The notes beneath the pieces are model-generated. The model searched no databases. It saw only the letters and a program-made list of their open reading frames with translations, and was not told where the DNA came from. From Nemertoderma westbladi (lineage: Eukaryota > Animalia > Xenacoelomorpha), in NCBI GenBank assembly GCA_032718475.1, contig JAUCBJ010000493.1, positions 1-42,507 on the forward strand: 42,507 nucleotides of DNA. The letters run 5' to 3'. The position numbers and the translations under genes are program-made. Of the stretch, positions 1-40,474 are shown piece after piece (the first letter of the stretch is position 1; every line of letters begins with the position of its first letter).

Positions 1-1871
1 GCTTACAGTTTGCAGTATATATAATTCTGGAATAGAATTAATTACAAGTACCGGTATAATTTCAGCCTAGATTTATAGAAATAAGATAATAGGCCTATCG
101 TAAATACCGGTATATCAATTATTTTAGAATAATTGAATTTCTGAAATTTAGGGTTACTTGGTTACTTTAACTTACTTTATTACCGTTATTTAAGCAGTAA
201 TCCAACTGATATTGAGACCTAATGGTTTTATGGTAGGCCTACTATTTATAAATCGTTAGATTTGATTTATAATGTATTTATACCCGTTTTAATGGGTTTA
301 GTCAATGTTTGAAATAAATGTTATTATTTCTGGGGTAATCACTACACAAAGCGGTGCGCTTTTAGTGAAGTGTTACGTATAGGACACTAAAACAAATGAT
401 TCTAATTTACCTAAGTTACTTAATACTACAAATTACGTCCAATTCGGGTGAGATTACAATCTCTAAATAAACACAAAAATTTACAAAACACAAAATACGA
501 ATTTTTAGGGTAATTTTACAAGAAGTCTACAAACCAGCCTAACAAAGGGTTAGAATTCTGGTTATTACAACGGACAGGGTACTACGGTATTTGAAATAAT
601 AAGTAGTAGTAAATACACTGCGTTGTCTAGATAGGAAAATACCACCGCCTGACGACCTATAGCCGTATCGCTATAGGTTCTACGTTATGTATCACGGAGT
701 GTTCCTACCTAGAAGTTAATAGAGCTAATCGAATGTGCCTATCAACCACTTTACAACACAAATATAATGCCTACACTAATTACTTCGGAAAGTACTGTAC
801 ACTAAACCCTAAATTAGGTACGAGTACTTGTACAACAGATAATCAGTAGTTAAATATACTTGAACAGCTAAAAGAACCACGGCATCTGCTGGAGTGACCG
901 ATGCACAAAATCACCAGTCTTTACCTACGCCGAGCAGCCCGTGTAGTACCGGGGTTAATTTAACTATAGCGGTATGTATAACAAACACAATTACTGTAGG
1001 AACAAACTTGGGGAATGAATGTTGCGGATAATCGCATAAACTCTGAATAATAAATATTACGCTACGCGTACAAACTACTCAAACAAAATACAGACCGAAC
1101 ACTGACAGACTACTATCAAGCCTAAACAAACTACGGTATATGCAGACTCCGAAATGATTAGGGAGTATGCGCTCTAACCCAGTAGTGCGACTTATTCTTT
1201 AGTTGGGGGTTTACCTTACAGCGTTCGCTGCCCCTACTGCCTAACCGTACTTAATCGGACAGATGATCTACACACGCTGCAATCCGTTCAGACCTAATGA
1301 CAGCCAGACAACTATCCAGCCTGCAAATTATCTAAATAAAATTATACGCTACCCGTACAGACTTACACAAACAAAGTTCAGACTAAACGATGGCAGACTA
1401 CTCTCAAGCCTAAATAAACTACAGGACATGCAGACTCCGAAATGATTAGGGAGTATGCGCTCTAACCCAGTAGTGCGACTTATTCTTTAGTTGGGGGTTT
1501 ACCTTACAGCGTTCGCTGCCCCTACTTCCTAACCGTACTTAATCGGACAGGTGATCTACACACACTGCAATTCGTTCGGACTTAACAGCAATCAGACAAC
1601 AGCTCAGCCTACAAATCGTCTGTACAATCTGATCAGGCTTACACGCCTTCTGTTCAATACTGGCCTACAAATAAATAAAACTTGACAGAAATAAGTAAAC
1701 CATATAAAGGAATAAGGGGTGATCAATCCCTAATCCCTCAAACAGCCTACCGGTATACAACAATCAAATCGAATAATACTAGTGTACTTATACGGAAGTA
1801 CCGGTTAGGACAGCTTGGCCTATGGACCTACAGAAGTACCGGTTCTAGCGGTTGGGCCTACTGACCTACAG
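1..1871 (-). mobile_element. BEL/Pao family copy A: fragment of the 5' leader, cut off by the window edge and by a junction at ~1871
   Basis: Colinear and highly similar to 33129-~34930 of the full element, including the 288-bp tandem duplication. It ends in the short VNTR and then switches abruptly to gag-derived sequence. Confidence 0.9.
1050..1620 (-). repeat. 288-bp tandem duplication (2 units) with a structured core, copy A
   Basis: CAGACTCCGAAATG occurs at 1143 and 1431; the cores are ~1141-1272 and ~1429-1560. Confidence 0.9.
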
Positions 1872-2267
1872 GACAGCTGCTTCCTGGTTCCGTTTGACTT
1901 GGGCCCGAGTGCCGATGATAGACCTATGGTGTTGGATTAGCTTAGGGTCTGATACTACTACTGGAGGGATGACCTTCTTTCAGTAGGAGGTGAGCTGAAC
2001 TCCTTTCTTAATCGCTCCACACTCCTATCTGTGTCACAGATGGTTGTATCGATTAGACTGTCTGATAGGTTTTGCTGGGTGTCAGACATGTTTAGCTATA
2101 CAGTTGAATGCTTACTGCTATAGTTACAGTTAAAGCAAGTCTAGTAATTCAGTATGACCGTTGGCCTAGTACCGGTAATTTATTACAGTATATTAGAATA
2201 CCGGTATACACTTATAGTATATATAAGTATTATAAACTAGGTTTGTCACAGAGTACCGGTATATAAA

Positions 2268-3485: not shown

Positions 3486-4434
3486 ATAAATTTAGCACAA
3501 ATATATATAAATATATAATAGGCCTATCGTGAATACCGGTATACAGCTTACACTTATAGTATATATAAGTATAATTATGAACTAGAATTAATTACAGAAT
3601 ACCGGTATGATTTTAGCTCAAATTTATAGAAATAAATATAATAAGCCTATGGTAAATACCGGTACCGTCAACCGGGGTGAAGTGGGATCAGAGGGGTGAA
3701 GTGGGATGAAAAAATATTTTGTTTAAAATGACAATAAAATGTAAATGCAATTACTTATTGTGAAAATTGCGACTAGTGTGTATGAAGATATGTATCTTCA
3801 TAATTATTTTGATGCATAACAGAGATAATAAATTATATTTGCTTGAAAGTTTGAGACAACCTAAAATGTTAAAAAATTTTGGCATCAAAAATTACATGTG
3901 CCCTACTAAAGTAATTTATATTTACTGAAAAGTAATATGTTCACTAAATTATATATCAATCTGTTTTGATGTTAACTTAATATATCCCAGTTTAAATCAT
4001 ATTAAAGCTGTAAAAAACTGTGAAATGTCACCTGGGGTGAAGTGGGATAATTTTTGGGGTGGAGTGGGATATTGATTATTTTACTACTGGTAACGATTTA
4101 TTGCTGTATTTGGTATTAGCATTTTATGTCGTGGTATGTAGGCCCATTAAAAACTTACCGGTATATTCTTAAAAATGAAAGTTTATTTTCTACCATCAGA
4201 CGATACAGTAAGCCTAACGGCAAGACTACAAATATTATGTAGGCCTTTGTTTATACCGGCAGTTCAAAGGTGTATAATCAATATAGGCCTACAGGTAGCC
4301 ATATGATTTTTGTAGTTTAGTTACTGAAGAAATGGTTAGAAGCCTACCAAGGCTTAGAGCATACCGGCAAGACAACAAATATTTTGTACTGGTACCCATC
4401 GTATTTATGTTGTTTATTTATACATACTGAGGAA

Positions 4435-6693
4435 ATGGTTAGACAATGGAAGCATGTCCCGGGAACCAGGGTTAATAGAAATTATAATGCATCTTCAGTT
4501 GAGGCCGCAGTAAGGAAGAGGCAGGCTACAGGAACATCATACAAGAAACTGGAAAATGAATTTGGCATTCCGAAGTCAGTCCTTCAGCGAAAAATGAATA
4601 ATAAACAACAGGGATCATACGGGGGACAGACTGCTTTAACAGCTGTAGAAGAAGAGGTCTTAGTTAAGAATATCATTACCTGTGGGAACTGGGGCTTTCC
4701 TTTAACAATGCTAGACATACGGTTCCTGGTGAAAAATTATCTGGATTGTGCAGGAAGAAATGTTCGTGAATTTCAAAAACCAACTACCGGTACATCTCTT
4801 AATGGTGGAGTGGAAATCGTGAAGAATCTACCTGGTGTAGAATGGGGTAACCTATTCTTGAAGAGACATAAGGAGTTATCGAAACGACTAGGCCAGAATA
4901 TAAGTCGCTCACGTTCAGGTCTAACAGCAGATGAAGTAGCCAAATACTTTGATAATCTGAAAGCATCATTGGAAGGTGTCGATCCTGAACTGATGCTTAA
5001 CTACGATGAAACAAATCTCACAGATGATCCGGGTCGAAAGAAGGTTATTGTGAAACGAGGAACAAAGTATCCTGAAGTTATTATAAATTCATCTAAGACA
5101 GCTATATCACTAATGATAGTTAAATCTCATCTCCGTGTGCAATGTAAAAATAGGTACAATAGTCCTACAGTAAGTTATTAGTTTATTAATTATTTACTAT
5201 TTATACTGTAATTACGTTTTATAATAAATTGTTCTGTACATTACATCTTTATCGTTGAGTCGGACATTGTCACGCTCTCGGTAAAGTTGTACATGTACAT
5301 AGTGTAATTACGTTTTATATTGGTTTTAGGTTAGCGTAGTGTAATATTGTATTTGTAACCAAGTAACATAAAGGACCCCCTTGGAAATAAGCTGCAAAGC
5401 TTTAGGGGTAATCCTATATGTTATGTTGGACAATACCTTTATACCGGTACATTGTTTGGTGTATTTGTTATTGTTTTTACATAATGTATAAATAAATCTA
5501 TCTATCTAATGATGGCTGGAACTGCTACTGGCGTGGTTCTACCGCCATATGTTGTGTACAAAGCTGAGTGCATGTGGGATCAGTGGAAGGAAGGAGGATT
5601 AACGAGTGCTTGGTATAATCGTACCTCATCTGGCTGGTTCGATGCAGCTTCGTTTACAGATTGGTTCAATAAGATAGCAATGCCATATTTCAAAAGATTT
5701 CCAAAGGAGAAACCCAAGTTGATGATTGGTGACAATCTCAGTAGTCATTTTTCTCCGCAGGTGATTGAGAAGTGTCAGAATTATAACATTCGGTTCGTTC
5801 GCCTGCTGCCAAATTCAACCCATCTTATGCAGCCGCTTGATGTTGCATTCTTCGCACCCCTCAAACGAAAATGGCGATTAGTTTTATCGTCATTTAAGGC
5901 TAAAGATGGAAAGAAACAACTTTCTCTTCCAAAAGATAAGTTTCCAGGTTTGTTGAAAGGTGTGATGGCGTCGATTGATAGTGAGGGTAGATCTACACTG
6001 GAGAGTGATGTTGAGCCAATTCTTGGGGAAAATATTTCTTCTAATGTGACAATGATATCCGGGTTCAGAAAGTGTGGAATACATCCATTTAATCCCTTGG
6101 AAGTATTATCAAGGTTGCCAAATTATGTTTCTCCAGATACCTCAGTAGTCGATGTGATGGATCATGCATTTGTGCAAACATTAAAAGATCTGCACCCAAC
6201 CTCTGAGACCAGAAAGAAAAAACGGAAGAAGAAGATTAATTAGCCAGCAGGAGTTGCGGTTTCTCTTGGGGACTTTCCTGCAGATGGAGAAGAAGATGAT
6301 AGTGATGAAAGTGAAAGTGGGGAAGAAGACGGTGATTCTCTCAACCCAGAACTTGATATACAGGCACATGGGCCACCAGGTAAACATCCTCGAGTATACA
6401 CTGGATTCAGTAACATTGCTTTAAGGGAATTCTATACATTGGGAGACTTTCAAGTGGGTAACATGGTTGTTGCTATTTATGATAATGAATGGTTTCTAGC
6501 AGATGTGTTACAAGTTAATTCAGATGATTTGAACGTTTCCTTTATGGACCGCCGTCGGCTTGATTGTTCCTCACAATGGTTCTGGGTCTGGCCATCAACT
6601 AGAGATATTTGTGATGTTCCATTGAATTCAATTCTTGGGCGATTTCATGATGACCTGTTAGGTAATACCAGTAGGAACTCGAGGTCAATATAA
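4435..6693 (+). pseudogene. pogo/Fot transposase (HTH, CENP-B-type HTH, DDE_1 domain, acidic linker, Tudor-like C-terminus), disrupted
   Basis: Motifs NYDETNL, IGDNLSSH and QPLDVAFF (35 residues between the 2nd and 3rd D). Removing the 5118-5513 insertion restores KTAISLMMAGTATG. A TAG at 6241-6243 is followed by an in-frame continuation into the 6439-6693 ORF. Confidence 0.92.
5118..5505 (+). mobile_element. 5'-truncated non-LTR retrotransposon tail (CR1/L2 group) inserted in the transposase
   Basis: TSD CTAATGAT at 5110-5117 and 5506-5513; ends AATAAA(TCTA)n; 3'UTR stem GGACCCCCTTGGAAATAAGC...GCTTTAGGGGTAATCC. Confidence 0.8.
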
Positions 6694-8139: not shown

Positions 8140-8700
8140 AATATTACACTACCCGTACAGAATACTCAAACAAATACAAACTAAAACGCTGGTAGACTAC
8201 CACCAAGCCTAAATAAACTACTGTATGTGCAGATTCCAAAATGGTTAGTTAGTATGCGTTCTAACACGGTAGTACGACTTATTCTTTAAGAGGGGATTGA
8301 CCTTACAGCTATGGCTGCCCCAACTTACTAACTGGCACTTCATCAGACAAACTCTACACAAGCAGCAATCTCTTCAGACCTAATAATAGCTAGACAACAA
8401 TCCAGCCTACAAAATATCTGAGTAATAACTATTACAGTACCTGAACAGACCACACAAACGAACACAGGCCAAAACGTTGGCAGAATACCGTCAAGCCTAA
8501 ATAAACTACAGTATGTGCAGATTCCAAAATGGTTAGTTAGTATGCGTTCTAACACGGTAGTACGACTTATTCTTTAAGAGGGGATTGACCTTACAGCTAT
8601 GGCTGCCCCAACTTACTAACTGGCACTCTATCGGACAAACTCTACACACGCCGTAATCTCTCCAAACCCAACAACAATCCGACAACAGTCCGGCCTACAG
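8140..8700 (-). repeat. 288-bp tandem duplication with structured core, copy B (divergent variant)
   Basis: CAGATTCCAAAATGG occurs at 8230 and 8518. Confidence 0.9.
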
Positions 8701-8879
8701 TTATCTGAGCAATCTGAGCAGACTTACACGTCTTCAGCTCAATATTAACTTACTAGGAAATAAAACTGACAGAAATAAGTAAACTATACAAAAGAATGAG
8801 GGGTGATCAATCCCTATTCCCCTGGCAGCCTACAATATACAATAGATCACAATCGAAATAATACTAATGTACTTATACT

Positions 8880-20240: not shown

Positions 20241-21422
20241 GCATTCCCATGATATCCCATCTGTTGACAGTTTGACTGTTATTGTGGTGTAACACAGTAA
20301 ACGGACATTAAAGTATATTATTATTGTTGTGACTTGGTTGCCAGGCAAATTATTTACTGTCAGTCAGTATATCTTAGTATGCAGTATCTTATTTGGTTCG
20401 ATACGGTATTTGATTATCTATTGTATTTAACTGAGATATGATACCGGGAGGGTGTGGCAACACAGTATAACAAGCAAATGACTGCCTAATTAATTCTGTA
20501 AGAACTCAAGTCTGGTGATTGTGTTTCCCTTTAGAGGAAACGTATTGTGACAAGTCTTTGGTCTTGATATCGCTACAGTATTCAATTTGTGACAACTCTC
20601 AATCGTGATGTAACTAATAATAAGAGCTTTGCTTATAATAATGGTCTGAAATATCGCCATATATTAATTATTTAGTAAGTCAGAGGTATAACAATATACA
20701 AATCTGATACAATTGTCCAGATTATCACTGATACTTAGTTACAGCAACCCACCTGTTGTGGCTCGTGTAAACCTTGATTCTGTAATATCGGCGATATATT
20801 AAGCAAATAATAATGACAAATTGAATTTACCGGTAGAATATCCAATATAACGATAAATAATTATAATTCAATTATTAACTCTTTAAGTTTATACCTTAGG
20901 CCTGTAATAACCACCAGTCAATTAAACCTGACCGGGGATCAGTGCCTCTGCATGGGCAATGCGAGTTCTTCTGTCCAACAATAACAAAAAGAGTGAATAA
21001 ACCACAGAACTAATCGTACTTATATATCAGCTTATCAGTAAGGAGCATAGCCAATAAGTTGGATCCTTATACAAGCCGTATACAAACCTTAATACAAGCT
21101 GGATATGCAGATAATGGCACTAGATGGCGTCAAAACCCTTTAGTAAAGCATAATTTAACCAAAATAGTCTATATTATATCGTAATCAACTTTATCAATAT
21201 AAAATGGTGTTTTGAGCTTAAAATTAGTAAAATAAGTAATTTAAAGGCAGAATTCATGAATGCAGCAACAAGAATACTCCACTATTCTGTTATTGCATTT
21301 GACATTACATTGATAACTGGATAGGCCTACAGGCCTATACATTATGTTTATAATAATTTAGCTTGTTGCTAAACTGGTGACCCAACCCGAAATCGATTCT
21401 CTACCTACCTGCCTACCTTAAA

Positions 21423-22235
21423 ATGCCTCTTGCTGCCGAAGATATCGCTGCCCTGGCCATGGCCTTACATATACTTCTTCCTGCTGCTACTGGTACTGGC
21501 ACTGAAAGCAACTCTGGCAACGCAATTAACACAGTTTCAATAAAACTGCCCACGTGCTGGACTGAGAACCCAGAGATCTGGTTCTCCCAAGTTGAGTCAC
21601 AGTTCGTCACCCACAGCATCACCATGGACTCAACAAAAGTACACTGTGGAATTTTATTACTGCCGTCTGTGGTCACTGCCCTGGACAATGTAACAGCTAA
21701 GGAAGTCGGGCCCATCCTACTCAATCCATTGGCCAGAGACCAGTATGGTACCTTGAAACATGCCCTCATTGCCTCTTTCAGTAAGATTCAGGCCCAGAAA
21801 GACAATGAACTTCTTTCACTTTCTGGACTCAGAGACCACAAACCATCCAGCTTCCTTCGCTACATGAGGTCCCTCAATGCCGATCCGGAGACACTCTTCT
21901 GGGTGTTATTTCTCTCCCAACACCCGTCCGAAGTCTGACGCATCCTTGCCAGTTCGAACACCTTCGACCTCGATGTTCTAGCCACCAACACCGACCGCAT
22001 CATGGAGGCAACCTGTAATGACCCTGTCAACATTGGAATCGCCAAGGTGAGAATAAAAAATGCTCCCAGAGCTGCGCAGACTCCTACCTCTGTCTCTACT
22101 ATCTCTGCTTCTTCCATAAGAAGTTTGGCAATGCTGCATGAAATTGCAACTACAGAGATTGCTGACTTAGTCACCTTCTCCCCTCCCCAACATCCTTGAC
22201 TCATGGTTCGGGAAATGCCAGGGCCAACCACTAAA
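21423..22235 (+). pseudogene. Gypsy gag
   Basis: VSIKLPTCWTENPEIWFSQVESQF...LRDHKPSSFLRYMR; in-frame stop at 21936-21938; decayed C-terminus. Confidence 0.8.
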
Positions 22236-22311
22236 CATCTCAGCAGCCGGCCAGAATGCAAAAATAACTATGACTGTGTCGGATCATCGCAGTGGCCAAA
22301 CTTACCTAGTG

Positions 22312-23045
22312 TATGGTGGCCGACTGCTGCCACATAAACCATCAATGTCTAATAAAAATAATCGGTTAAAAAATCAATAAAAAAATTCAATAAAAAAAAT
22401 TTCAATAAAAAATTTCAATAAAAAATTAAATAAAAAAAATTTCAATAAAAAAAATTAAAAAAAAATTCAATAAAAAAAAATTCAATAAAAAAAAATTCAA
22501 TAAAAAAATTCAATAAAAAAAATTTCAATAAAAAAAATTACAAAAAAATTCAATAAAAAAATTCAATAAAAAAAATTCAATAAAAAAATATGTTACATTT
22601 TTTTCTTAAACCCACCGTGGCCTACAGCTGCCAGGTATTCATTTAATACTAACCACTGCAGTTATATTATACTGTATAGGTGGCAGTACTCGGCCACAGC
22701 GAAATAGAAAAAAAAATTGCAAAGTAAAATTGAATTCACACGTGGCCGACTGCTGCCAAATACTTTCAAACACATGGAAACATGGCCTACAGCTGCCAAA
22801 ATGTGTATTTCCTGCAGTATCATTAACTAACATACTGTTTTGCTGTACCGGTAGGCTTCCAGTATCCTGTAGTTCGAGATTAGTTTCAGTATTCCGGTAC
22901 TGAAATTCAAGCTACGAGCCTACATCAGTAGGCCTACATACAAATCTTGTAGGTACAATGCGGCAGCAGTGATCAGGCCCGGGACGGTAGGTAATTTAAG
23001 GGTTTCTGCTAATAATGGCATGGAATAGTGATTATGGTTTAAAAT
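22312..23045 (+). repeat. Left TIR of the IS3EU-type element
   Basis: Reverse complement of 37600-38330; contains an (A)nTTCAAT minisatellite (~22370-22590) and repeated GTGGCC...GCTGCCA motifs. Confidence 0.93.
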
Positions 23046-24140: not shown

Positions 24141-25378
24141 TGTTCGCGCTTTCAGACCTTTGGCAGTTTAACCCGCCAAATTAGGATGTCTTCTAGATAA
24201 TAAATCGCTTTAGCCTCTGACAAGTATTTAATTCACTACACTAGTTGAAACCAATCTGTGCGCGATCATTCACCCGTTGGATATACCCGGGAGATTGATT
24301 TCGACAGCTTAATCGTATTGCTATGTAAGCCTAATGTATTATTCGACTGACAGTATTATATAATCTCTGACAATATTATTCACCTTCGGGGAATATTAAC
24401 AGTTCCTTTAGGACGTGGCGCTCTATCTATATAAACAGAGTTATGACTTAAACTACTCACAACGATATGGCTCAGTTATAATTCACATATATGTCGCATT
24501 CTTTAGGAAATGCTTCTTTATCAGTTTCACTCATACACAATGCTGCACAATACTGCACACTAATCTGCCGATCTTCACTGATTTTAGTCACATATAAAAG
24601 GAACACAGACTGGCTCATGTAGGGTATATCAAATAACATTAGATTCACTTCAAACCACTTTAACATAAGTCACAATCGTTATATGTAACCCTTCTCTCTT
24701 ACCTTCGGTATATCAAGAATATTGGGTTTTCGGGGTTATTTCTCGTTATTCCAATATAATAATTCATCAACAAATATAATGAATAACCGACAGCAAAATC
24801 AGTAAAGTTAAGGTATAAATGATTTTGTATGGTATGCCGCATTTATGGATGTTATGCAGGTCGATAAAGGATATATGTCCTTATAATTAAGCCTACTAGT
24901 GTAAGGCTAAAGCAGAAAAGCACAAAATACTCTAAAGCCGTTCTTCCTGGCTTAGAATCACTAACAACACTGATAAGAATAACTATAAGAATACCAGCTA
25001 CCCTTATTCCACGAAGCTCCCGTCCAACACAGAGGATGAGCATTGAGATAGGAAAATTCAGTTCAGTAGCTCTGTGATAGGTCAAAATCAAAGCCAACTC
25101 AAATCCTATTGGCAGATACAGAGAGCTGCAACGTGGCAATATCAGCCGTTAGCCGTCGTCATGGTAGCGACACTGTTTTCAAGAGTATCGAGCTTTTTAC
25201 GTCATGAAATTGCAGATTATGTCCTCTAAAGTACAAGTACAGTTCAAATACAGAAGAAATGACTTTTATGTCCTCTAAAACACCAGTACAGCAAGGACAC
25301 GGCCTTTTTATGCCTGGCAAACCAACTACAGAGTACTTTAAGGGAAAATAACCGGTTAATGACGCAAAAGCTTTTACA
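24141..25378 (-). repeat. 3' LTR of BEL copy C
   Basis: Near-identical to 35038-36275; two substitutions were seen by eye. Confidence 0.96.
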
Positions 25379-28398: not shown

Positions 28399-30057
28399 TT
28401 ACGTTATGGAGTCCCTAGATGTTTGAAGGATTAGGGAGGTGGTCGTGGGAAGAGAATCTTGCCTTCCACAGTTTCCGGAGAGTCCTCCATTCCCTTCCGA
28501 TAAACACAAACGACCGACTGGGTGATTGAGTCGCTGCATCCTGAATACAATTCCAGGTTTCCTCTTCGTCCTGGAATAGTGACGATAGAAACATCGCTCA
28601 AAGTATATGACGGCGTCACAAAGCCGATTCCAGGAGCTATAGTGGTCCGTCGCTCTCTGCAGGAGAGGTGAGAGTCCCTGCGAGACGTCTGATGTTCCAG
28701 AGCTCCAATCGCTCTCTCTGATCTTCATGAAGGATCCACTCGCAGTGGGGAGGTCCAGATCCACGGCGTCGTCCCTGGCAATATGTAATACCGACAGATC
28801 TATCCCGGGTTCAAATAACTCCGCTCCACCCGTCCGGGTTTTAGGTTTAACTTTCTCCGCTCCCTTGGCTGGTCTAATCTCAGTTGGAGTAAGATGGGGA
28901 GGCCATTCATCCTCCTTACTCAGGAAGTCGGGTTCACCTAACCGGTCTGTAGTATCTGTCAGTTCTTGAGGAGTTGCTCCTCTGGAAGCGATGTCAGTTG
29001 GATTAAATTTCTTGGGGCAATATCTCCATTGATCTACATTGGAGCTAAGATTGTCATTATCTGAGGAGTGTGGTGTTCCCTCAGTTGGGTCATCTCCCTC
29101 ACTAGTATCATCTTCCCATTCACTCACCTGGCAGACTCGATCTTGAAGCAGTCTTTCCCTGAGCGTTCTACGGGAAGGTCCAGTAAGGTACCAACCTACT
29201 CTAGTTCTTACCGCATAGGTCTGTAGTGGCTGTGGTTGAGCAGGTCGTTTCTCTAATGTCTCCAGCGCCTCATGCGCGTTTTGGCCGATGAGTATTTGCA
29301 CTCCAGGATAATCAGTCTGGAATCGAAGTATGTTAAGATGTTGGATGCTCTCATCCTCGTCCCAATTATAAAGGTCTGCTTGATTAGTAGCGAAGTTCTT
29401 TATAGCCACCATTTTCACTGACCTTATACTGTATTCTCCTAGTTTATCCTGTGGGGTGGACAACTCACCTATATAATAGTCGGCAGCTACAGTAGAATTC
29501 CAAACCTGCATGATCCCTGACATGTTTAGCTTGGTTCGGAACTTGGGTTGTCCAGCAAAGATGACTTCGGCTAGTTCTTTATCGATGAATGTTCCTGTGC
29601 TACCGGAGTCCAGGAGGGCGTTCACTATATAGCTCTTCTGAGGTCCGTGGACCCGTAACTGGACTACAGGAAATTCTCGGATTCCTATATTGGAAGTTGG
29701 CGCTTTCCAAGATGGTTGTTGATCGGAAGTAGTTAAGGTAAGGTCGCTGTCTGTGTCTTTCTCATACACGAGTGCTCGATACACTGCGGTGGTGTTTATT
29801 AGGTAACAGGATTCGTTTTGGTCGGAGAACTCGTCCGTATAGAATCCTTCCATCTCAGATTGATCAGTGTCGTTCACATCACTGAATTGGACATGTAGTT
29901 CGGACTCACTTACCTGACTCGGGCTGTTTCGTTCGAATTCCGTGTGCAACAAGATATGATGTTTTGCGCCGCACTTTGCACACCTTGCGTCGGAGTTACA
30001 GGTTCGCCGTTGGTGTCCTCGTCTGAGGCAATTATAACACAACCGCTTATCCCACAT
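28399..30057 (-). CDS. BEL/Pao Gag zinc knuckles 2-3, aspartic protease and in-frame RNase H C-terminal remnant
   Basis: CYNCLRRGHQRRTC and CAKCGAKHHILLH; ALLDSGSTGTFI; ILIGQN; TRVGWYLTGP; QWRYCPKKFNPTDIASRG...GEPDFL...EWP; YSSWNRL. Confidence 0.9.
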   Translation of the reverse strand: MWDKRLCYNCLRRGHQRRTCNSDARCAKCGAKHHILLHTEFERNSPSQVSESELHVQFSDVNDTDQSEMEGFYTDEFSDQNESCYLINTTAVYRALVYEKDTDSDLTLTTSDQQPSWKAPTSNIGIREFPVVQLRVHGPQKSYIVNALLDSGSTGTFIDKELAEVIFAGQPKFRTKLNMSGIMQVWNSTVAADYYIGELSTPQDKLGEYSIRSVKMVAIKNFATNQADLYNWDEDESIQHLNILRFQTDYPGVQILIGQNAHEALETLEKRPAQPQPLQTYAVRTRVGWYLTGPSRRTLRERLLQDRVCQVSEWEDDTSEGDDPTEGTPHSSDNDNLSSNVDQWRYCPKKFNPTDIASRGATPQELTDTTDRLGEPDFLSKEDEWPPHLTPTEIRPAKGAEKVKPKTRTGGAELFEPGIDLSVLHIARDDAVDLDLPTASGSFMKIRESDWSSGTSDVSQGLSPLLQRATDHYSSWNRLCDAVIYFERCFYRHYSRTKRKPGIVFRMQRLNHPVGRLCLSEGNGGLSGNCGRQDSLPTTTSLILQTSRDSIT

Positions 30058-30074
30058 GACTTCACGTCTATCCT

Positions 30075-32870
30075 TTAGTGATTTTTCAGGAATTTATCAC
30101 ACGCATTTAAACGGTGGGGCCCGTCGCACAGCACACATTTCGGCTTGATGTTACTTACTTTAACCTGTGCTATGTGGTGCGCACTTGTTCTTTCCTCGGG
30201 CTTTCTCACCTGAATTCTTTTAGGAGACGTAGGAAGGGTTTTTTGTACCGGTTCCCTTCTGTCATTGGGTCGAGACTCGGATTTACTTACCTGATCTTTA
30301 GGCATTTTATTGACATAATAAGATCTGTCAGTGTCTTTCCCGCTGTCCTCTCCTTGAGAGGTTTGGCTTTCACCGTCGTCGGTATAACATACTGGTGTTA
30401 CCCTTCTCCTAGAAACGGGTTTCTCACTTACCTTGTTTTCCAATGTCTTCTCTCTGGACTGCCTTAGGAGCTGTAATTTCACTTCTCTATCTAAGAAAGA
30501 CATGAGATCAGCCATGGTAGGACTTCGTCGTTGTTGTTCATTCATGTACAACACTTTCTTGTCCCAGCGTGTACCTACTCCACCCTTGGGCAAAGTAGAT
30601 GCTAAGGCTCCTACAACCATAGAATTCTGGTATTCATGAGACTTACCTAACCAATCTAGTTGTCTACAGATCTCCTGAATCTCATCGGAAAACTCTATAA
30701 TCCCGCTGCTAAGAAACTTTCGGGGCGCCATTAATTTCGCATATAAATACCTAGCTATGTTAGTCCTATTACCATACCTGATGTTTAGTGTATCCCAAAC
30801 TTGTCTTAATCCATCTGGATGTCCAATAAATTTTAACGCCATTGACTTGGGAGATCCTTCCAAGCACTCGATGAGGAATCTAAGTTTCTCTCCATTAGAT
30901 AGCACAGAGTTCTGTATGTTACCTTTGTAATATTCATTAAAAGGTAACCATTTCATCTCATCTCCATTGAACTTGACGATCTCTCCCACCTTTACCGCTT
31001 GCCGGGCTTCGGTTCTAGCCATTTGACGCGTAAAACTTTCTTGGGCCATCGTGTTATTTAATATCGAGTTATCGGTATATAAATTTCTCGGATTATGATC
31101 CGGTCTATAGGGAATATCATTATCAACAGGTTTATAATTACCCTTAATAGGGTTCACTATAGGAGTTTCTACTTCGCTAGCAGTATAGATGCGTGTAGGC
31201 TCCACACCTTGCGCATGAGATACTTCAGACCTAACAGGATGACACATTGTTACAGGGGGTGGTGGTATACCCCTTTGTGTATTTACTAATTTATCGCGCT
31301 CTAGCGCGATACTTTGCTGCACTTCTTGCAACTCTAGTCTACTTTCCCTTACTGTGCCCTTAAATTGCTGAACAGTCTCCTGCATCTGCCCAAGCAGGAG
31401 ATCCATCCCCCGCCGTCTCTCGTCCACCCATTCGACCGCCGAAGCGGGAGTCGCCAACGTTGTAGCGGGCGGACGAGGGACAACGGGCGACAAATTATGA
31501 ATATCTCGCTCGGGGTCCAGGACCTGAACTGTCTCCTGGGCAGTTCTACGGGGCACAGGTAGCTTAGTGCTATGCAGAGGGAATTTAGAGGTAACTTCAG
31601 GGAGCACAGGTGTGTCTATCACCGAAGGGGTGATTTCGAGAACAGGCCTAATTATTTCAGGCTCATCTACTATAGTAGGGAGTCTTTCTATTTTAATTAT
31701 TTGGTCTGTGGGTTCTGTACTGCCTAAGTTGGTGCTATTTAGTTGCCTTCTAACAGCTGGAGGCAAATCAGGCAATTTCTGACGGTGTAATGTTCTTTTA
31801 CGTCTGCTTAGGCGAGATCGATTTCCTCCGCCTTCAGTGTCGGTGGTATCGCCTTCCTCAGATGATGTATAACCTTGTCGTTTGGGAGTAGATCGATTCA
31901 TCATCTGCATATTACTAGCTGTTAACTGTTTATTAAAGTTATCTTGCCTCTCTTGAAGATTTTCCAACTCTAGTTGGGTTGTCTCTTCAGATGCCCTCCG
32001 TTCTGCTTCTGCCACTGCTATCTTTCTTTCCGCTTCTGCCGCTGCCGCTTTCCTTTCCGCTTCTACGGCTGCAGCTGCCACTTTTGCCTCTGCCGCTGCC
32101 GCTTTTATTGCTGCAGCTGCCGCTTTTGCCTCTGCCGCTGCCTCTGCTGCCTTTCTTTCCGCTTCTGCCGCTGCCACTGCCGCTGCTGCTGTCTTTCTGT
32201 CTTCTATACGTTTTTTCCTTACTTGTTCTTCCTGGACTCGTGTGATGCGGAGTTGTTCATCAAATTTAGCTTGGTTCGCCGCTAACATTTCCGCATCGAT
32301 TGCGTCCAGCACAAGCTTGGTTCCTTCACTATTAGGGCTAAGCCCCTCCAGCCTTCTCCTCAACTCTTCGTCCCCTACAAAGCGTTGATAGTCTGACAGA
32401 TAGATGTCAATGGCATCTCTCTTTCGCGGTTTCTCTGCTGTCACTTCGCTTTCTTCTTGAGAAAAAGTGGCGTCGGTTGATTCTTCATAGGTTGGCCGCT
32501 CATCATAAACTTTATCCACCATCTTCGCTCCGCGTTCGGGCGTCCGCTCATCAGTATCCGAACTACTGGAGCTATCAGGCCGCTGAAAACTAGGTTCTTG
32601 GCTAGGATGTTGCTGCTGTTTGACAGCTGCTTCTTGATCCCGCTTGACTTGGGCCCGAGTGCCGATGATAGACCTACGATGTTGGACTAGCCTAGGGTCT
32701 GAGATTACTACAGTAGGGATGGCCTTTCTTACAGCAGGAGGTGACTTCGACTTGGATCTAGGATGTTCTATACTTGGATCTGGGTCACTGATCTTTTTAA
32801 GACACTGTCTAACAGTCATTCTAACACTATCTAGGAGACTATCCGACAGTGATTGGGTTGTGTCAGACAT
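30075..32870 (-). CDS. gag: BEL/Pao Gag (Ala/Glu coiled coil, DUF1759-like capsid region, first zinc knuckle)
   Basis: IVKFNGDEMKWLPF...EKLRFLIECLEG...WDTLNIRYG; CVLCDGPHRLNAC. Confidence 0.92.
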   Translation of the reverse strand: MSDTTQSLSDSLLDSVRMTVRQCLKKISDPDPSIEHPRSKSKSPPAVRKAIPTVVISDPRLVQHRRSIIGTRAQVKRDQEAAVKQQQHPSQEPSFQRPDSSSSSDTDERTPERGAKMVDKVYDERPTYEESTDATFSQEESEVTAEKPRKRDAIDIYLSDYQRFVGDEELRRRLEGLSPNSEGTKLVLDAIDAEMLAANQAKFDEQLRITRVQEEQVRKKRIEDRKTAAAAVAAAEAERKAAEAAAEAKAAAAAIKAAAAEAKVAAAAVEAERKAAAAEAERKIAVAEAERRASEETTQLELENLQERQDNFNKQLTASNMQMMNRSTPKRQGYTSSEEGDTTDTEGGGNRSRLSRRKRTLHRQKLPDLPPAVRRQLNSTNLGSTEPTDQIIKIERLPTIVDEPEIIRPVLEITPSVIDTPVLPEVTSKFPLHSTKLPVPRRTAQETVQVLDPERDIHNLSPVVPRPPATTLATPASAVEWVDERRRGMDLLLGQMQETVQQFKGTVRESRLELQEVQQSIALERDKLVNTQRGIPPPPVTMCHPVRSEVSHAQGVEPTRIYTASEVETPIVNPIKGNYKPVDNDIPYRPDHNPRNLYTDNSILNNTMAQESFTRQMARTEARQAVKVGEIVKFNGDEMKWLPFNEYYKGNIQNSVLSNGEKLRFLIECLEGSPKSMALKFIGHPDGLRQVWDTLNIRYGNRTNIARYLYAKLMAPRKFLSSGIIEFSDEIQEICRQLDWLGKSHEYQNSMVVGALASTLPKGGVGTRWDKKVLYMNEQQRRSPTMADLMSFLDREVKLQLLRQSREKTLENKVSEKPVSRRRVTPVCYTDDGESQTSQGEDSGKDTDRSYYVNKMPKDQVSKSESRPNDRREPVQKTLPTSPKRIQVRKPEERTSAHHIAQVKVSNIKPKCVLCDGPHRLNACDKFLKNH

Positions 32871-34189
32871 GTTTGATGGTACAGTTGAATGCCTACTGCT
32901 ATATTACAGTTAAAGCAAGTCTAGTAATTCAGTATCACTGTTAGCCTAGTAATTAATTACCGATACTGCTACTCAGTGTAGCGTGATATATATATAATAT
33001 TAGTATACCGGTATGCTTATAGTATATATAAGTATTATTACAGACTAAGTTTATCACATAATACCGGTATAATTTTAGCACAAATATATATAAATATATA
33101 ATAGGCCTATCGGGAATACCGGTATACAGCTTACAGTTTGTAGTATATATAATTCGGGACTAGAATTAATTACAAGTACCGGTATAATTTCAGCCTAAAT
33201 TTATAGAAATAAAGATAATAAGCCTATTGCAAATACCGGTATGTCAATTATTTTAAATAATTGAATTTCTGAATTTTTGGGTTACTTGGTTACTTTACTT
33301 ACTTTATTACCGTTATTTGAGCAGTAATCCAACTGATATTGAGACCTAATGGTTGTATGGTAGGCCTACGATTTATAAATCGTTAGATTTGATTTATAAT
33401 ATATATATACCCGTTTTAATGGGTTTGTCAATATTTGAAATAAATGTTATTATTTCTGGGGAGTAATCACTACACAAAGCGGTGTGCTTTCAGTGAAGTG
33501 TTACTTATAGGACACTAAAACAAATAATTCTAATTTACCTAAGTTACTTACTACTACAAACTACGTACGATTCGGGTTGAGATTACAATCTCTAAATAAA
33601 CACAAAATTTTACAAAAACACCAAAATACGAATTTTTAGGGTAATTTTACAAGAAGTCTACAAACCAGCCTAACAAAGGGTTAGAAATCTGGTTATTACA
33701 ACGGACAGGGTACTACGGTATTTGAAAATAATAAGTAGTAGTAAATACACTGCGTTGTCCAGATAGGAAAATACCACCGCCTGACGACCTATAGCCGTAT
33801 CGCTATAGGTTCTACGTTATGTATCACGGAGTGTTCCTACCTAGAAGTTAATAGAGCTAATCGAACGTGCCTATTAACCACTTTACAACACAAATATAAT
33901 GCCTACACTAATTACTTTCGGAAAGCACTGTACACTAAACCCTAAATTAGGTACGAGTACTTGTACAACAGATAATCAGTAGTTAAATATACTTGAACAG
34001 CTAAAAGAACCACGGCATCTGCTGGAGTGACCAGTGCACAAAATCACCAGTCTTTACCTACGCCAAGCAGCCCGTGTAGTACCGGGGTTAATTTAACTAT
34101 AACGGTATGTATAACAAACACAATTACTGTAGGAACAAACTTGGGGAATATGAATGTTGCGAATAATCGCATAAACTCTGAATAATAAA

Positions 34190-34755
34190 TATTACGCTAC
34201 GCGTACAAACTACTCAAACAAAATGCAGACCAAATACCGACAGACTACCATCAAGCCTAAACAAACTACGGTATATGTAGACTCCGAAATGATTAGGCAG
34301 TATGCGTTCTAACCCAGTAGTACGACTTATTCTTTAATTGGGGGTTTACCTTACAGCATTTGCTGCCCCTACTTCCTAACCGTACTTAATCGGACAGAGG
34401 CTCTACACACACTACAATCCGTTCAGACCTAATAACAGCCAGACAACTATCCAGCCTACAAATTATCTAAATAAATATTATACGCTACCTGTACGGACTT
34501 ACACAAACAAAGTACAGACTAAACGATGGCAGACTACTCTCAAGCCTAAATAAACTACAGGACATGCAGACTCCGAAATGATTAGGCAGTATGCGTTCTA
34601 ACCCAGTAGTACGACTTATTCTTTAATTGGGGGTTTACCTTACAGCTTTTGCTGCCCCTACTTCCTAACCGTTCTTTATCGGACAGATGATCTACACACA
34701 CTGCAATCCGTTCAGACTTAACAACAATCAGACAACAGCTCAGCCTACAAATTGT
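34190..34755 (-). repeat. 289-bp tandem duplication with structured core, copy C
   Basis: Cores at ~34276-34407 and ~34565-34696. Confidence 0.9.
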
Positions 34756-35037
34756 CTGTACAATCTGATCAGGCATACACGCCTTCTGTTCAATACTGGC
34801 CTACAAATAAATAAAACTTGACAGAAATAAGTAAAAATCTCAATAAAAAACCAGGGCTGCAGTCCCTGATTAATTATTAAGGCCTACCGGTATATAACTA
34901 TCAAAATCGAATAATACTGCTGTACCTGTACTGCTGTAGGTACCGGTCCGGGTGGTTAGGTAGTCAGGCCTACTGGGTACCGGTTGCCGGTACTTCAGCT
35001 TTATTGCCTACTGCAATACAGAAGCAATATCCTTTAT

Positions 35038-36275
35038 TGTTCGCGCTTTCAGACCTTTGGCAGTTTAACCCGCCAAATTAGGATGTCTTCTAGATAATAA
35101 ATCGCTTTAGCCTCTGACAAGTATTTAATTCACTACACTAGTTGAAACCAATCTGTGCGCGATCATTCACCCGTTGGATATACCCGGGAGATTGATTTCG
35201 ACAGCTTAATCGTATTGCTATGTAAGCCTAATGTATTATTCGACTGACAGTATTATATAATCTCTGACAATATTATTCACCTTCGGGGAATATTAACAGT
35301 TCCTTTAGGACGTGGCGCTCTATCTATATAAACAGAGTTATGACTTAAACTACTCACAACGATATGGCTCAGTTATAATTCACATATATGTCGCATTCTT
35401 TAGGAAATGCTTCTTTATCAGTTTCACTCATACACAATGCTGCACAATACTGCACACTAATCTGCCGATCTTCACTGATTTTAGTCACATATAAAAGGAA
35501 CACAGACTGGCTCATGTAGGGTATATCAAATAACATTAGATTCACTTCAAACCACTTTAACATAAGTCACAATCGTTATATGTAACCCTTCTCTCTTACC
35601 TTCGGTATATCAAGAATATTGGGTTTTCGGGGTTATTTCTCGTTATTCCAATATAATAATTCATCAACAAATATAATGAATAACAGACAGCAAAATCAGT
35701 AAAGTTAAGGTATAAATGATTTTGTATGGTATGCCGCATTTATGGATGTTATGCAGGTCGATAAAGGATATATGTCCTTATAATTAAGCCTACTAGTGTA
35801 AGGCTAAAGCAGAAAAGCACAAAATACTCTAAAGCCGTTCTTCCTGGCTTAGAATCACTAACAACACTGATAAGAATAACTATAAGAATACCAGCTACCC
35901 TTATTCCACGAAGCTCCCGTCCAACACAGAGGATGAGCATTGAGATAGGAAAATTCAGTTCAGTAGCTCTGTGATAGGTCAAAATCAAAGCCAACTCAAA
36001 TCCTATTGGCAGATACAGAAAGCTGCAACGTGGCAATATCAGCCGTTAGCCGTCGTCATGGTAGCGACACTGTTTTCAAGAGTATCGAGCTTTTTACGTC
36101 ATGAAATTGCAGATTATGTCCTCTAAAGTACAAGTACAGTTCAAATACAGAAGAAATGACTTTTATGTCCTCTAAAACACCAGTACAGCAAGGACACGGC
36201 CTTTTTATGCCTGGCAAACCAACTACAGAGTACTTTAAGGGAAAATAACCGGTTAATGACGCAAAAGCTTTTACA
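35038..36275 (-). repeat. 5' LTR of BEL copy C
   Basis: Direct repeat of 24141-25378. Confidence 0.96.
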
Positions 36276-37599: not shown

Positions 37600-38330
37600 A
37601 TTTTAAACCATAATCACTATTCCATGCCATTATTAGCAGAAACCCTTAAATTACCTACCTCCCGGGCCTGATCACTGCTGCCGCATTGTACCTACAAGAT
37701 TTGTATGTAGGCCTACTGATGTAGGCTCGTAGCTTGAATTTCAGTACCGGAATACTGAAACTAATCTCGAACTACAGGATACTGGAAGCCTACCGGTACA
37801 GCAAAACAGTATGTTAGTTAATGATACTGCAGGAAATACACATTTTGGCAGCTGTAGGCCATGTTTCCATGTGTTTGAAAGTATTTGGCAGCAGTCGGCC
37901 ACGTGTGAATTCAATTTTACTTTGCAATTTTTTTTTCTATTTCGCTGTGGCCGAGTACTGCCACCTATACAGTATAATATAACTGCAGTGGTTAGTATTA
38001 AATGAATACCTGGCAGCTGTAGGCCACGGTGGGTTTAAGAAAAAAATTTAACATATTTTTTTATTGAATTTTTTTTATTGAATTTTTTTATTTAATTTTT
38101 TTGTAATTTTTTTTATTGAAATTTTTTTTATTGAATTTTTTTATTGAATTTTTTTTATTGAATTTTTTTTTAATTTTTTTTATTGAAATTTTTTTTATTT
38201 AATTTTTTATTGAAATGTTTTATTGAAATTTTTTATTGAAATTTTTTTTATTGAATTTTTTTTATTGATTTTTTAACCGATTATTTTTATTAGACATTGA
38301 TGGTTTATGTGGCAGCAGTCGGCCACCATA
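37600..38330 (-). repeat. Right TIR of the IS3EU-type element
   Basis: Reverse complement of 22312-23045. Confidence 0.93.
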
Positions 38331-39970
38331 CTAGTGGATTGCGGAGCCGAAGTTTCGGTTTCCCCCACCATGGACAATGACAAATGCACCTACCCCACTG
38401 CACCGTTGGTTGCTGTCAATGGCATTCTGATTGCCACTTGGGGTAAAAGGATGATCAACCTCCACCTTGGCAAGGGCCATGTCCGTGTCTTCACGCAGGA
38501 GTTCCACGTAGTCAATGTTACTTCTCTGATCCTCAGCACCATCAACCTTGCAGGGAGATCTTTAATATGTATATCTGTATGAATATGTCGAACTTTAAAG
38601 CGATCCTGAAAAAGATCGCTTGTCACCATCTGCTATCGCTGAAATCCACATCAACCACGCCAGACCCTGCTAGCAGCTCCTCTATGGGTTTCTGGAACTC
38701 CTAATCCCAAGATTCGAGACGACTGCAGCCAACAAACATGGTGTGGAGCACCACATCATTAGTGAGGGACCTCCTCTACACACGCGCACCCGTCGGCTCA
38801 TCTCTGAGATAGTCACGGATGCCAAGGCTGAGTTTGCTAAGATGGAAGAACACAGAATAATCTGATGTTCGAACTCACCATGACCCTCCCCACTACATAG
38901 TACCCCTAAACCAGGTGGTGGTTGGCAGTCCTGCAGTAACTACCGCCGGCTCAACAACGCCACTGTTGAAGACCGATACCCCCTACCACACATTCAAGAT
39001 TTCAACAGTCACCTGGAGGGTATGTTGGTCTTCTCCAAGATCGATTTGATACTGGGATACCATCAGATCCCCATGGCAACCAAAGATACCCGGAAGACAG
39101 TGATTATCACTCCCTTCAGTCTTTGAGAGTTCCTCAGAATGCCATTTGGGCATAAAAACGCCATCCAGGCGTTTCAACAGCTCATAGATGGCAACCTATG
39201 TGATATCCCATTCGTGTTTGCCTACCTCAATGACATCCTGGTAGCCAATTGAACAGTTGCTGAGCACATCAACCACCTCCGCCAAGTTTTCCAGCTCCTA
39301 TCAAACAACGGAATGGTCAATAACTGTGCCAAGTGCATCTTTGGTGTCTCTGAACTGAGTCACCCCTCTTCGTTCTTCTTGTGCATCGGCAACAAAGTAG
39401 TTGCCAATGCCATATCTCGCGCTCCAATAGCCAATGCCGTCCCATCATCTCTCCCACCGTCGATTTCCGGCAATTTGCAACTGCGCAACGGTCATCCACC
39501 GAGGTCAATGATTACAGGACTGCCATCACCAACCTCATCCTCGAAGATGTCCCCTTCGACGACTTCACCCTCCTGGGCGATGTCTCCACAAGTAGAACTC
39601 ATCCCATAATCCCTAAGCAGCGGACTCTGCGTGTATTCGATGCAATGCATGGACTCGGCCATTCCAGCTGTCAGCCACCACAACGTGCCGTCTCATCCCA
39701 CTTCGTCTGGCATGGCCTGAAATGCAACATTTTTAGATGGTGCCAAGAGTGTCACACATGCCAATCTTCTAAAATTCACCAGCACGCCCATGCTCCACTC
39801 ACACGTCGACAACCCCCAGATTCCTGGTTCAACAGCCTATACATCGACATCGTTGGCCCTCTACTGGTCTCCAAAGGTATGACATATCTATTTTTGATCA
39901 TAGATTGCTTCAGCCGATGGCCAGAAGTCATCCCAGTTTGTGACTCAACCACCGAGACCTGCACCCGAGC
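38331..39970 (+). pseudogene. Gypsy pol: protease, RT, RNase H mostly deleted, integrase truncated
   Basis: LVDCGAEVS; NYRRLN...DRYPLPHIQD; FSKIDL..GYHQIP; MPFGHKNA; YLNDIL; jump to VVANAISR; H..GH...CHTC; IDIVGPL; IDCFSRWPE; many stop codons. Confidence 0.92.
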
Positions 39971-40474
39971 CCCTAGGAACCGAAGGTAGTTTACTGTCAC
40001 AATTCAGCCCTGAAATGAATCTGTGTTGGTTTTATGATTCAGTGATCAAATTCAAAACGGTTCTAACGAATTTCCCAATTCTTTCAGCATGGGTAGATAG
40101 ACACCCTAAATCTAAGATCACTCACAAATTTTCAGACTCGGAGGGTCCGCGATCTAGTAATGAAAAATGAATATGCTAAAAATGAATCTTGATCGAACTC
40201 AACTAATCCAAAACTCAATTTTTAAATTATCGCTAAGAAAATCCCCCTCCATACACTCTATGTTGAGTCGGTATTCAGTTTCACAAGGGGGTCTACCATG
40301 GTATGCCCATAACTAACCTTCAGTATAACTAACAACTTATAAAAAAGTCATGTACTACATTTTTTAAAATAATAAATTGTTTCTTGTATTAAAATGATGT
40401 TTTATTCATATTAATATTTTCAGCTGATCTTGAAATTATGTCCAGCATGAATATAAACCTACGTTACACAAACA

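What the first reader, a model, noticed from the sequence alone, without database searches (positions are those of the whole stretch)
34276..34696. Tandemly duplicated ~130-nt RNA structure with compensatory covariation in the BEL leader (6 copies in the window)
On the element's sense (minus) strand each core folds into a long closing helix (TGTAGA/TCTRCA, TCCGA/TCGGA, GGTTAGG/CCTAATC, AGTA/TACT). This encloses (a) a GGGG-CAGC-N4-GCTG-TAAGGTAAA-CCCC bulged arm, (b) an invariant AAAGAATAAGT linker and (c) a CGYaCTA-loop-TAGaRCG arm. Across copies A (1141, 1429), B (8228, 8516) and C, the N4 loop varies freely (plus strand GTTC, TATG, ATTT, TTTT) while its stem is fixed. Paired positions co-vary: CGC/GCG in A vs CGT/ACG in B and C, and TTAGG/CCTAA in A and C vs TTAGT/ACTAA in B. 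It matches no ribozyme core I can recognise. Inference: an undescribed cis-acting RNA (packaging or dimerisation signal, IRES-like module, or a new ribozyme).
Basis: partly seen in the sequence, partly recalled or inferred. Interest (0 to 1): 0.85.

Follow-up and report, generated by a model that had tools for sequence, protein, structure and literature searches.

The report
Duplicated three-way RNA in retrotransposon leader
A family of BEL/Pao jumping genes in an animal genome carries, twice in a row near the front of its RNA, a 91-base stretch predicted to fold into a three-armed shape that matches no catalogued RNA family, and it likely serves as the handle by which the element's RNA is paired and packaged.

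Summary
The six cores exist as described. They lie in a 288-289-nt tandem repeat in the leader of a young, RT-less BEL/Pao element (C) and two relatives (A, B). The six copies are only three lineages, and only two pairs change on both sides; one of these has an ambiguous register in B. Single-copy folding is no better than shuffles (z -1.5 to +0.75). The shared fold does beat column shuffles (0 of 500). In contigs from four runs, variation falls at 14 of 41 unpaired and 5 of 50 paired positions (p=0.008). New here: the 91-nt core is nearly identical between the two tandem units of each element (2/273 differences) while the unit flanks differ (116/597), so it is repeatedly copied across. No Rfam hit. 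An IRES at the core is disfavoured, because AUG depletion starts about 700 nt upstream. A self-cleaving ribozyme would cut the genome RNA off from its primer site. Best reading: a likely Gag-binding packaging/dimer-linkage signal (0.4); no selected structure 0.25. In passing, the element shows an 11-nt self-priming signature instead of a tRNA site. No relative was found outside this family. Interest 0.42.

The parts
34580..34670 (-). Inner core C2 (5' copy on the RNA), predicted three-way junction. P1 34670-34659 with 34591-34580 (1x1 mismatch 34663/34587); P2a 34658-34655 with 34632-34629; P2b 34654-34651 with 34646-34643; loop 34650-34647; 10-nt bulge 34642-34633; 15-nt linker 34628-34614; P3 34613-34607 with 34600-34594 (A.A mismatch); hexaloop 34606-34601; 2-nt joiner 34593-34592
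34562..34699 (-). C2 including the two outer closing helices
34291..34381 (-). Inner core C1 (3' copy); 34273-34410 with outer helices; differs from C2 at 1 of 91 positions
34185..34762 (-). Two tandem 288-289-nt units that carry the cores; unit flanks about 19% diverged from each other
1156..1534 (-). Cores A1 (1156-1246) and A2 (1444-1534) in rearranged relative A
8243..8621 (-). Cores B1 (8243-8333) and B2 (8531-8621) in truncated relative B
35038..36275 (-). 5' LTR of element C, 1238 bp, TGT...ACA, 2 differences from the 3' LTR
24141..25378 (-). 3' LTR of element C; a 5-bp target duplication flanks the element
32871..35037 (-). 2167-nt leader, strongly AUG-depleted on the sense strand (7 observed, 36 expected)
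35027..35037 (-). 11-nt primer site, not tRNA-like, perfectly complementary to 35771-35761 inside the LTR (self-priming signature)
30075..32870 (-). gag ORF (DUF1759, first zinc knuckle)
28399..30093 (-). Second ORF: two further knuckles and the aspartic protease, then a jump to the end of the RNase H region; RT absent, no integrase hit

Best explanation
The duplicated 91-nt core is predicted to fold into a three-way junction in the element's RNA and likely acts as a Gag-binding packaging and dimer-linkage signal. Shown: the position 370-750 nt behind the 5' LTR; retention in an element that has lost RT and so must be copied in trans; variation concentrated in loops; near-identity of the two cores within each element. 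Inferred: P1 stacks on P2, the conserved single strands (bulge UAAGGU, linker AAAGAAUAAGU) and the C-NNN-G-U hexaloop present purines to the zinc knuckles of Gag, and two co-packaged RNAs are held together there. Reverse transcriptase then switches template inside the core and copies one unit's core over the other. Also inferred: the fold is weak enough to be scanned through until Gag binds it.
For: Loop-biased variation across thousands of contigs: 14/41 unpaired vs 5/50 paired positions vary, p=0.008. The two sides of the P3 compensatory pair track across four runs (26/32, 17/24, 22/30, 95/97% of depth). Consensus fold beats column shuffles. In a 37-window scan of the leader, sense-strand SCI of 0.93 or more with 30 or more variable columns occurs only in the two core windows. 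Core homogenisation: 2/273 vs 116/597, p=3e-18, while A-C divergence is the same in core and flank (13/182 vs 24/400). Dimer linkages are reported recombination hot spots in HIV-1 and MLV (PMC516450, passages). [quoted passage not shown] A 250-bp direct repeat is deleted at 16-40% in a retroviral assay (PMC3187697, passages), so keeping two units in three lineages suggests selection or regeneration. Hexaloop positions 2-4 vary and positions 1, 5, 6 do not, as a pseudotriloop would (PMC3884659, passages).
Against: No binding, probing or RNA data. No palindrome of 6 nt or more in any core, so there is no classical kissing-loop dimer signal; predicted homodimer gain is only 8-9 kcal/mol. The core is not clearly slower-evolving than its flanks (B-C 29/182 vs 89/394, p=0.08; six-copy paired vs unpaired p=0.12). 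P2a and P3 have pair probabilities of only 0.2-0.7, and P1 shifts register in B. Some paired sites vary with no partner change listed: 34644 (0-22% across the four runs), 34659 (0-2%) and 34586 (4-51%). For 34586 clipping of B-type contigs is plausible (best identity 0.80-0.84) but not proven. The structure was chosen after seeing the copies. If Gag is made from a shorter transcript that starts inside the LTR, that RNA would also carry the cores, which a sole packaging signal should avoid. Ordinary DNA gene conversion could also homogenise the cores.
Confidence: 0.4

Rival explanations
1. No selected RNA structure. The unit is an ordinary tandem repeat of an LTR-element leader, possibly a DNA-level enhancer or insulator array, that happens to contain short inverted repeats. 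The cores stay alike by DNA gene conversion.
For: Folding energy is not beyond shuffles. Only two compensatory events in three lineages; 63-80 of 500 column shuffles of the 139-column window also give two (for the inner core only 3-4 of 500). Core diverges about as fast as the flanks. Tandem repeats in the 5' UTRs of ZAM, gypsy, Tirant and accord act at DNA level (PMC8872304, passages).
Against: Loop-biased variation. SCI near 1 with 0 of 500 shuffles matching. Random placement of the observed 20 changes gives at least 2 compensatory and at most 2 broken pairs in 0.09% of trials. The G-U pattern favours the RNA strand. The homogenised tract coincides with the P1-closed domain.
Confidence: 0.25
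2. A nuclear-export element for the long unspliced RNA, working like the RSV direct repeats or the MPMV CTE and binding a host export factor.
For: Duplicated structured element with conserved purine-rich single strands. RSV uses direct repeats for export of unspliced RNA (PMC12789967, passage). It would be useful on both a genomic and a shorter Gag RNA.
Against: No Rfam match. CTE and the RSV repeats lie near the 3' end. It does not by itself explain core-limited copying.
Confidence: 0.12
3. A translation element: an IRES, shunt or enhancer that helps ribosomes reach the gag AUG across a very long leader.
For: The leader is 2167 nt. If the genomic RNA starts near the self-primer at 35771, it has nine AUGs between 35739 and 35385 and could not be scanned from the cap.
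Against: AUG depletion starts about 700 nt upstream of the first core (2 observed vs 13.4 expected between 35339 and 34671 in C; 2 vs 12.5 in B), although the antisense strand is also low there (4 vs 10.7). This fits scanning through the cores. The cores lie 1.4 kb before gag. No IRES family hit.
Confidence: 0.1
4. A new class of small ribozyme. The variable-loop arm is a dispensable stem and the conserved single strands form the active site.
For: Conserved single strands with a variable-loop stem and unremarkable folding energy are typical of small ribozymes (recalled). The 288-nt tandem spacing resembles retrozyme units (recalled). Unchecked notes report many hammerhead arrays in this genome.
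Against: Hammerhead CUGANGA occurs only in B-type sequence and not in A or C; hairpin, twister and HDV-like short cores are absent (motifs recalled). No Rfam hit to E=10. Cleavage here would separate R-U5 and the primer site from the genome. An invariant run of 11-13 nt is not surprising when 19 of 91 sites vary (inference).
Confidence: 0.08
5. A splicing-related element: the bulge is a 5' splice-site-like sequence (AAG|GUAAA) that binds U1 or is hidden by the fold, or the unit is a captured spliced-leader-RNA-like module.
For: Donor-like bulge in A and C. An Sm-site-like U-rich stretch lies about 60 nt downstream (sequence; consensus recalled).
Against: B reads AAG|GUCAA. The Sm-like stretch is paired in all six copies (helix 2). 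The region downstream stays AUG-depleted (4 vs 22), so it is not constitutively spliced out.
Confidence: 0.05

Closest known systems
Retroviral packaging and dimer-linkage signals (HIV-1 SL1-SL3 psi; MLV palindrome plus GACG stem-loops) and the Ty1 5'-terminal packaging region (PMC516450, PMC12789967, PMC4974528: passages read)
   Same: Structured leader RNA behind the primer site of an LTR retroelement whose Gag has zinc knuckles; local excess of sequence exchange.
   Different: No palindromic loop and no GACG loop; a three-way junction with a 10-nt bulge; duplicated as part of a 288-nt unit; lies 1.4 kb before gag; in BEL/Pao, for which my searches listed no such structure.
RSV direct repeats and MPMV constitutive transport element (PMC12789967, passages)
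   Same: Repeated cis RNA element acting on unspliced retroelement RNA.
   Different: Those lie near the 3' end; no Rfam match here.
5' UTR tandem repeats of Drosophila ZAM, gypsy, Tirant, accord (PMC8872304, passages)
   Same: Tandem repeat in the leader of an LTR retrotransposon.
   Different: Those are described as DNA-level insulators or protein sites; here the substitution pattern favours an RNA fold.
Pseudotriloop hairpins of HBV epsilon, foamy virus, HIV TAR and the IRE (PMC3884659, passages)
   Same: Hexaloop with C1 and G5 fixed, positions 2-4 variable, 3' pyrimidine at position 6.
   Different: The closing pair is A-U, not the favoured G-C; only one arm of a larger junction; no shared sequence.
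Small self-cleaving ribozymes (hammerhead including rearranged forms, hairpin, twister, pistol, hatchet, HDV-like)
   Same: Size, multi-way junction, conserved single strands.
   Different: No Rfam hit; searched core motifs absent or not conserved.

Membership tests
BEL/Pao LTR retrotransposon (host element) | Gag DUF1759, three zinc knuckles, aspartic protease; relatives carry Pao peptidase A17 and DUF5641 | tested here: met
   4 of 6 relatives scanned carry PF05380 and PF18701
BEL/Pao LTR retrotransposon (host element) | TG...CA LTRs with 5-bp target duplication | tested here: met
Autonomous BEL/Pao element | RT, RNase H and integrase present | tested here: not met
   tblastn with 26 long relatives finds no RT or integrase in element C; about 550 residues are skipped between 29173 and 29046
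Any Rfam 15 family | Covariance-model match | tested here: not met
   only RT-19 at 26 bits (gathering 78) elsewhere in the window; none to E=10 on the C and B repeats
Retroviral-type psi/dimer linkage | Located in the leader downstream of the primer site | tested here: met
Retroviral-type psi/dimer linkage | Palindromic or GACG kissing loop | tested here: not met
   no palindrome of 6 nt or more; loops seen
Retroviral-type psi/dimer linkage | Specific Gag/NC binding, needed for packaging | not testable with these tools
   needs experiment
Hammerhead ribozyme (any permutation) | CUGANGA and GAAA core conserved in all copies | tested here: not met
   CUGANGA found only in B-type sequence
Hairpin, twister, HDV-like ribozymes | Conserved loop motifs (recalled short patterns) and Rfam models | tested here: not met
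   pistol, hatchet and twister-sister were compared only through Rfam and by eye
IRES at the core | Upstream AUGs tolerated before the element, start codon close behind | tested here: not met
   (indirect test)
Pseudotriloop hairpin | C1-G5 cross-loop pair, 3' pyrimidine bulge, G-C closing pair | tested here: inconclusive
   first two fit by sequence and variation; closing pair is A-U; criteria from PMC3884659
Tf1-type self-priming (host element, in passing) | Sequence right after the 5' LTR is complementary to an LTR segment, not to a tRNA end | tested here: met
   11/11 in C and 11/11 in B with three compensatory differences
Tf1-type self-priming (host element, in passing) | The LTR segment is the 5' end of the transcript and is cleaved off | not testable with these tools
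   no RNA reads listed

The most novel reading that the evidence does not exclude
The core is a new class of small functional RNA: either an unrecognised ribozyme, or a junction that joins two genome RNAs in offset register so that reverse transcriptase rewrites one tandem core from the other in most replication rounds, making an internal repeat behave like a second pair of LTRs in a self-primed BEL/Pao element.
Probability: 0.12. Interest if true: 0.85.

Novelty: new variant of a known kind. Interest (0 to 1): 0.42.

Why it matters
How BEL/Pao elements select and pair their RNA is, in the papers my searches listed, not described; even for Ty1 and Ty3 the packaging sequences are loosely defined (PMC4974528). 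A compact 91-nt candidate with natural variants gives a direct in vitro test. The sharply bounded copying between tandem cores is a natural record of where template switching or conversion happens. If the RNA proved catalytic it would be a new ribozyme class. The limit is that it is known from one family in one genome and no function is shown.

Tried and rejected
No whole genome is held for this window, so genome-wide copies could not be collected. Pattern scan of metagenome contigs: 29 matches, none with the downstream CCCC, linker or P3, rejected as chance. Pattern scans of viral contigs and prokaryote genomes: 0. Related-locus scan of viral contigs with the protease ORF: 5 pattern hits, none confirmed. 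Gag C-terminal homologue search: none at E<=0.001. The profile-free search gave only distant relatives (24-54% identity) with no DNA context. Sequencing runs: no RNA holder listed; one run is only guessed to be RNA and is not used as evidence of expression. Contig depth gives no copy number, and short contigs cannot phase the two sides of a pair or reveal single-unit deletions inside the identical core. One search used a mis-registered structure for the two outer helices (76.9% paired); the corrected count is. The core as a self-encoded tRNA-like primer was rejected: the primer site pairs with the LTR instead (the first duplex scan missed this). Strand-swapped P1 between the two units has predicted probability 0. 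A resemblance of the hexaloop to HCV IRES IIId (recalled) was dropped because its G run varies. Resemblances to group II domain V and Y RNA (recalled) were dropped on order of motifs. Earlier-finding look-ups by sequence and by words found no note on this structure.

Full report
Setting. The finding lies in the leader of an LTR element (C) on the minus strand, 36275 to 24141. Its LTRs are 1238 bp, differ at 2 sites, read TGT...ACA and are flanked by a 5-bp target duplication. It encodes Gag with DUF1759, three zinc knuckles and an aspartic protease. Four of six relatives scanned carry the Pao peptidase and DUF5641 domains, so it is BEL/Pao. tblastn with the 26 relatives of 1500 residues or more finds neither RT nor integrase, and about 550 residues are skipped between 29173 and 29046. 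C is therefore young and non-autonomous. Two partial relatives, A (leader 1-1870, rearranged) and B (7187 onward), share the leader.

Observation. All six cores are present. They sit in a 288-289-nt tandem unit. The inner 91 nt form a predicted three-way junction: P1 (11 bp with a variable 1x1 mismatch), P2 (4+4 bp with a 10-nt 3' bulge and a 4-nt loop), a 15-nt linker, and P3 (3+3 bp around an A.A mismatch, with a hexaloop). Two outer helices close it. The copies form three lineages. Only 2 of 39 pairs change on both sides. B breaks two P1 pairs and is predicted to prefer a P1 register shifted by 4 nt (homologous register 0.08-0.27). One position of the 4-nt loop is fixed. No copy folds better than dinucleotide shuffles.

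Tests for selection on the fold. (a) For one copy per lineage, the consensus fold has SCI 0.99-1.02; 0 of 500 class-preserving column shuffles reach its energy or SCI. Two compensatory pairs arise in 4 of 500 shuffles of the inner core but in 63 of 500 of the 139-column window. (b) In a 37-window scan of the leader, high SCI with many variable columns occurs on the sense strand only at the two cores, though two compensatory pairs also appear in an antisense window outside them. (c) Random placement of the observed changes gives this pattern in 0.09% of trials (structure fixed beforehand). (d) Contigs of four public runs laid on core C2 (1811, 382, 25 and 13 contigs) list variants at 19 of 91 inner positions: 14 of 41 unpaired and 5 of 50 paired (p=0.008). 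The two sides of the P3 pair track across runs (26/32, 17/24, 22/30, 95/97% of depth). Against: 34644, 34659 and 34586 vary with no partner listed. For 34586 clipping of B-type contigs at the 80% threshold is plausible but unproven. On the six window copies alone, paired versus unpaired is not significant (7/50 vs 12/41, p=0.12). I put the chance of a selected RNA fold at about 0.7.

Core-limited copying. The two cores of one element differ at 1, 0 and 1 of 91 sites, while the unit flanks differ at 116 of 597 (p=3e-18). Between A and C, core and flank diverge equally (13/182 vs 24/400); between B and C the core is only slightly slower (29/182 vs 89/394, p=0.08). Lineage-specific changes, including loop bases, appear in both cores, so selection alone cannot explain this; one core is copied onto the other. 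The tract matches the P1-closed domain plus a few bases. Template switching between co-packaged RNAs or DNA gene conversion would both do it. Dimer linkages of HIV-1 and MLV are reported recombination hot spots (PMC516450, passages), RNA hairpins can be too, and direct repeats of this size are normally deleted often (PMC3187697, passages).

Leader context. ATG is the most depleted trinucleotide of the sense leader (7 vs 36, below all 300 shuffles; antisense 22 vs 29), in A and B as well; background tiles are much closer to expectation. Depletion begins near 35380, about 700 nt before the first core, behind a TATA-like box at 35330. This suggests that ribosomes scan through both cores, and argues against an IRES at the core or constitutive splicing from the donor-like bulge. 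There is no tRNA-type primer site. Instead the first 11 nt after the LTR are the exact complement of an 11-mer inside the LTR in both C and B, at homologous places and with three compensatory differences (expected 0.001 per LTR), as in Tf1/Tj1 self-priming (PMC4600332, passages). The core is thus not the primer.

Mechanism. A cis element kept by an RT-less, actively spreading family, placed behind the primer site, weakly folded, with exposed purines and a C-NNN-G-U hexaloop of pseudotriloop pattern (PMC3884659, passages; closing pair does not fit), and marking a copying hot spot, is best read as a Gag-binding packaging and dimer-linkage signal (0.4). All binding steps are inferred. There is no palindromic loop, and a shorter Gag mRNA would carry the cores too. 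Rivals: no selected structure or a DNA-level repeat like those of ZAM and Tirant (PMC8872304, passages) 0.25; export element like the RSV direct repeats (PMC12789967, passages) 0.12; translation element 0.10; new ribozyme 0.08; splicing-related 0.05.

Comparison and novelty. Rfam gives nothing at the repeats. Recalled hammerhead, hairpin, twister and HDV-like core motifs are absent or not conserved. No relative was found in viral, metagenome or prokaryote collections, which hold little animal DNA, and no genome is held for this window. Paper searches (listings and abstract openings only) showed no description of a structured BEL/Pao leader element. The library lacks most subscription papers and I read no supplements. 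Structured leader signals are a known kind in retroviruses and Ty elements (PMC4974528, passages), so this is a new variant of a known kind with untested function. Self-priming in BEL/Pao was not seen in the listings, but 17 unchecked notes of this scan already report it in other genomes.

Verdict. Observation confirmed with corrections; interpretation partly supported; interest 0.42.

Noticed in passing
window 35037-35027 with 35771-35761 (C); 9070-9060 with 9830-9820 (B): Self-priming signature in a BEL/Pao family: no tRNA-type primer site; perfect 11-nt complement inside the LTR in two lineages with three compensatory differences. A keeps 10 of the 11 LTR bases, but its primer site is rearranged away.
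   Followed up: partly
window 35771-35038: Two possible start regions in the LTR: the self-primer at 35771 is followed by nine AUGs down to 35385, then a TATA-like box at 35330 and an AUG-poor stretch of about 2.5 kb to gag. This suggests separate genomic and Gag transcripts, or an intron in the LTR.
   Followed up: partly
window 35039-34993 and 9072-9030: Two short hairpins directly behind the 5' LTR in both C and B overlap the primer site and contain AATAAA; they may gate priming or polyadenylation (sequence).
   Followed up: no
window 34820-34835, 1689-1704, 8769-8784: A 16-nt stretch conserved in all three lineages amid diverged flanks, about 150 nt upstream of the first core, is complementary over 7 nt to the core's linker; a second 7-nt match lies near 33730. 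About 0.5 such matches are expected by chance in the leader (rough estimate).
   Followed up: no
window 1-3664: Relative A is scrambled (leader end, LTR, gag start, leader start) and is a recombinant: B-like upstream of about 1690, C-like in the repeats and beyond.
   Followed up: partly
window 33240-34184: The leader downstream of the repeats is more conserved between B and C (75/930 differences) than the repeats are, and has windows of SCI near 1 around 33920-34130 and 33700-33850 with too few variable columns to judge.
   Followed up: no
window 22311-23045 and 37600-38331: 97% identical inverted pair of about 735 nt containing a 13-14-nt A-rich tandem array, flanking element C; possibly the terminal inverted repeats of a DNA transposon into which C inserted.
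   Followed up: no
window 4321-6693 (+), 21381-21938 (+), 39354-39989 (+): Other mobile-element fragments: DDE_1 transposase (5485-6243), DUF7041 Gag-like piece, and an integrase zinc-binding/rve piece.
   Followed up: no
window 31957-32216: Alanine/glutamate/lysine-rich repeat inside the long N-terminal part of Gag, predicted by eye to be a coiled coil.
   Followed up: no
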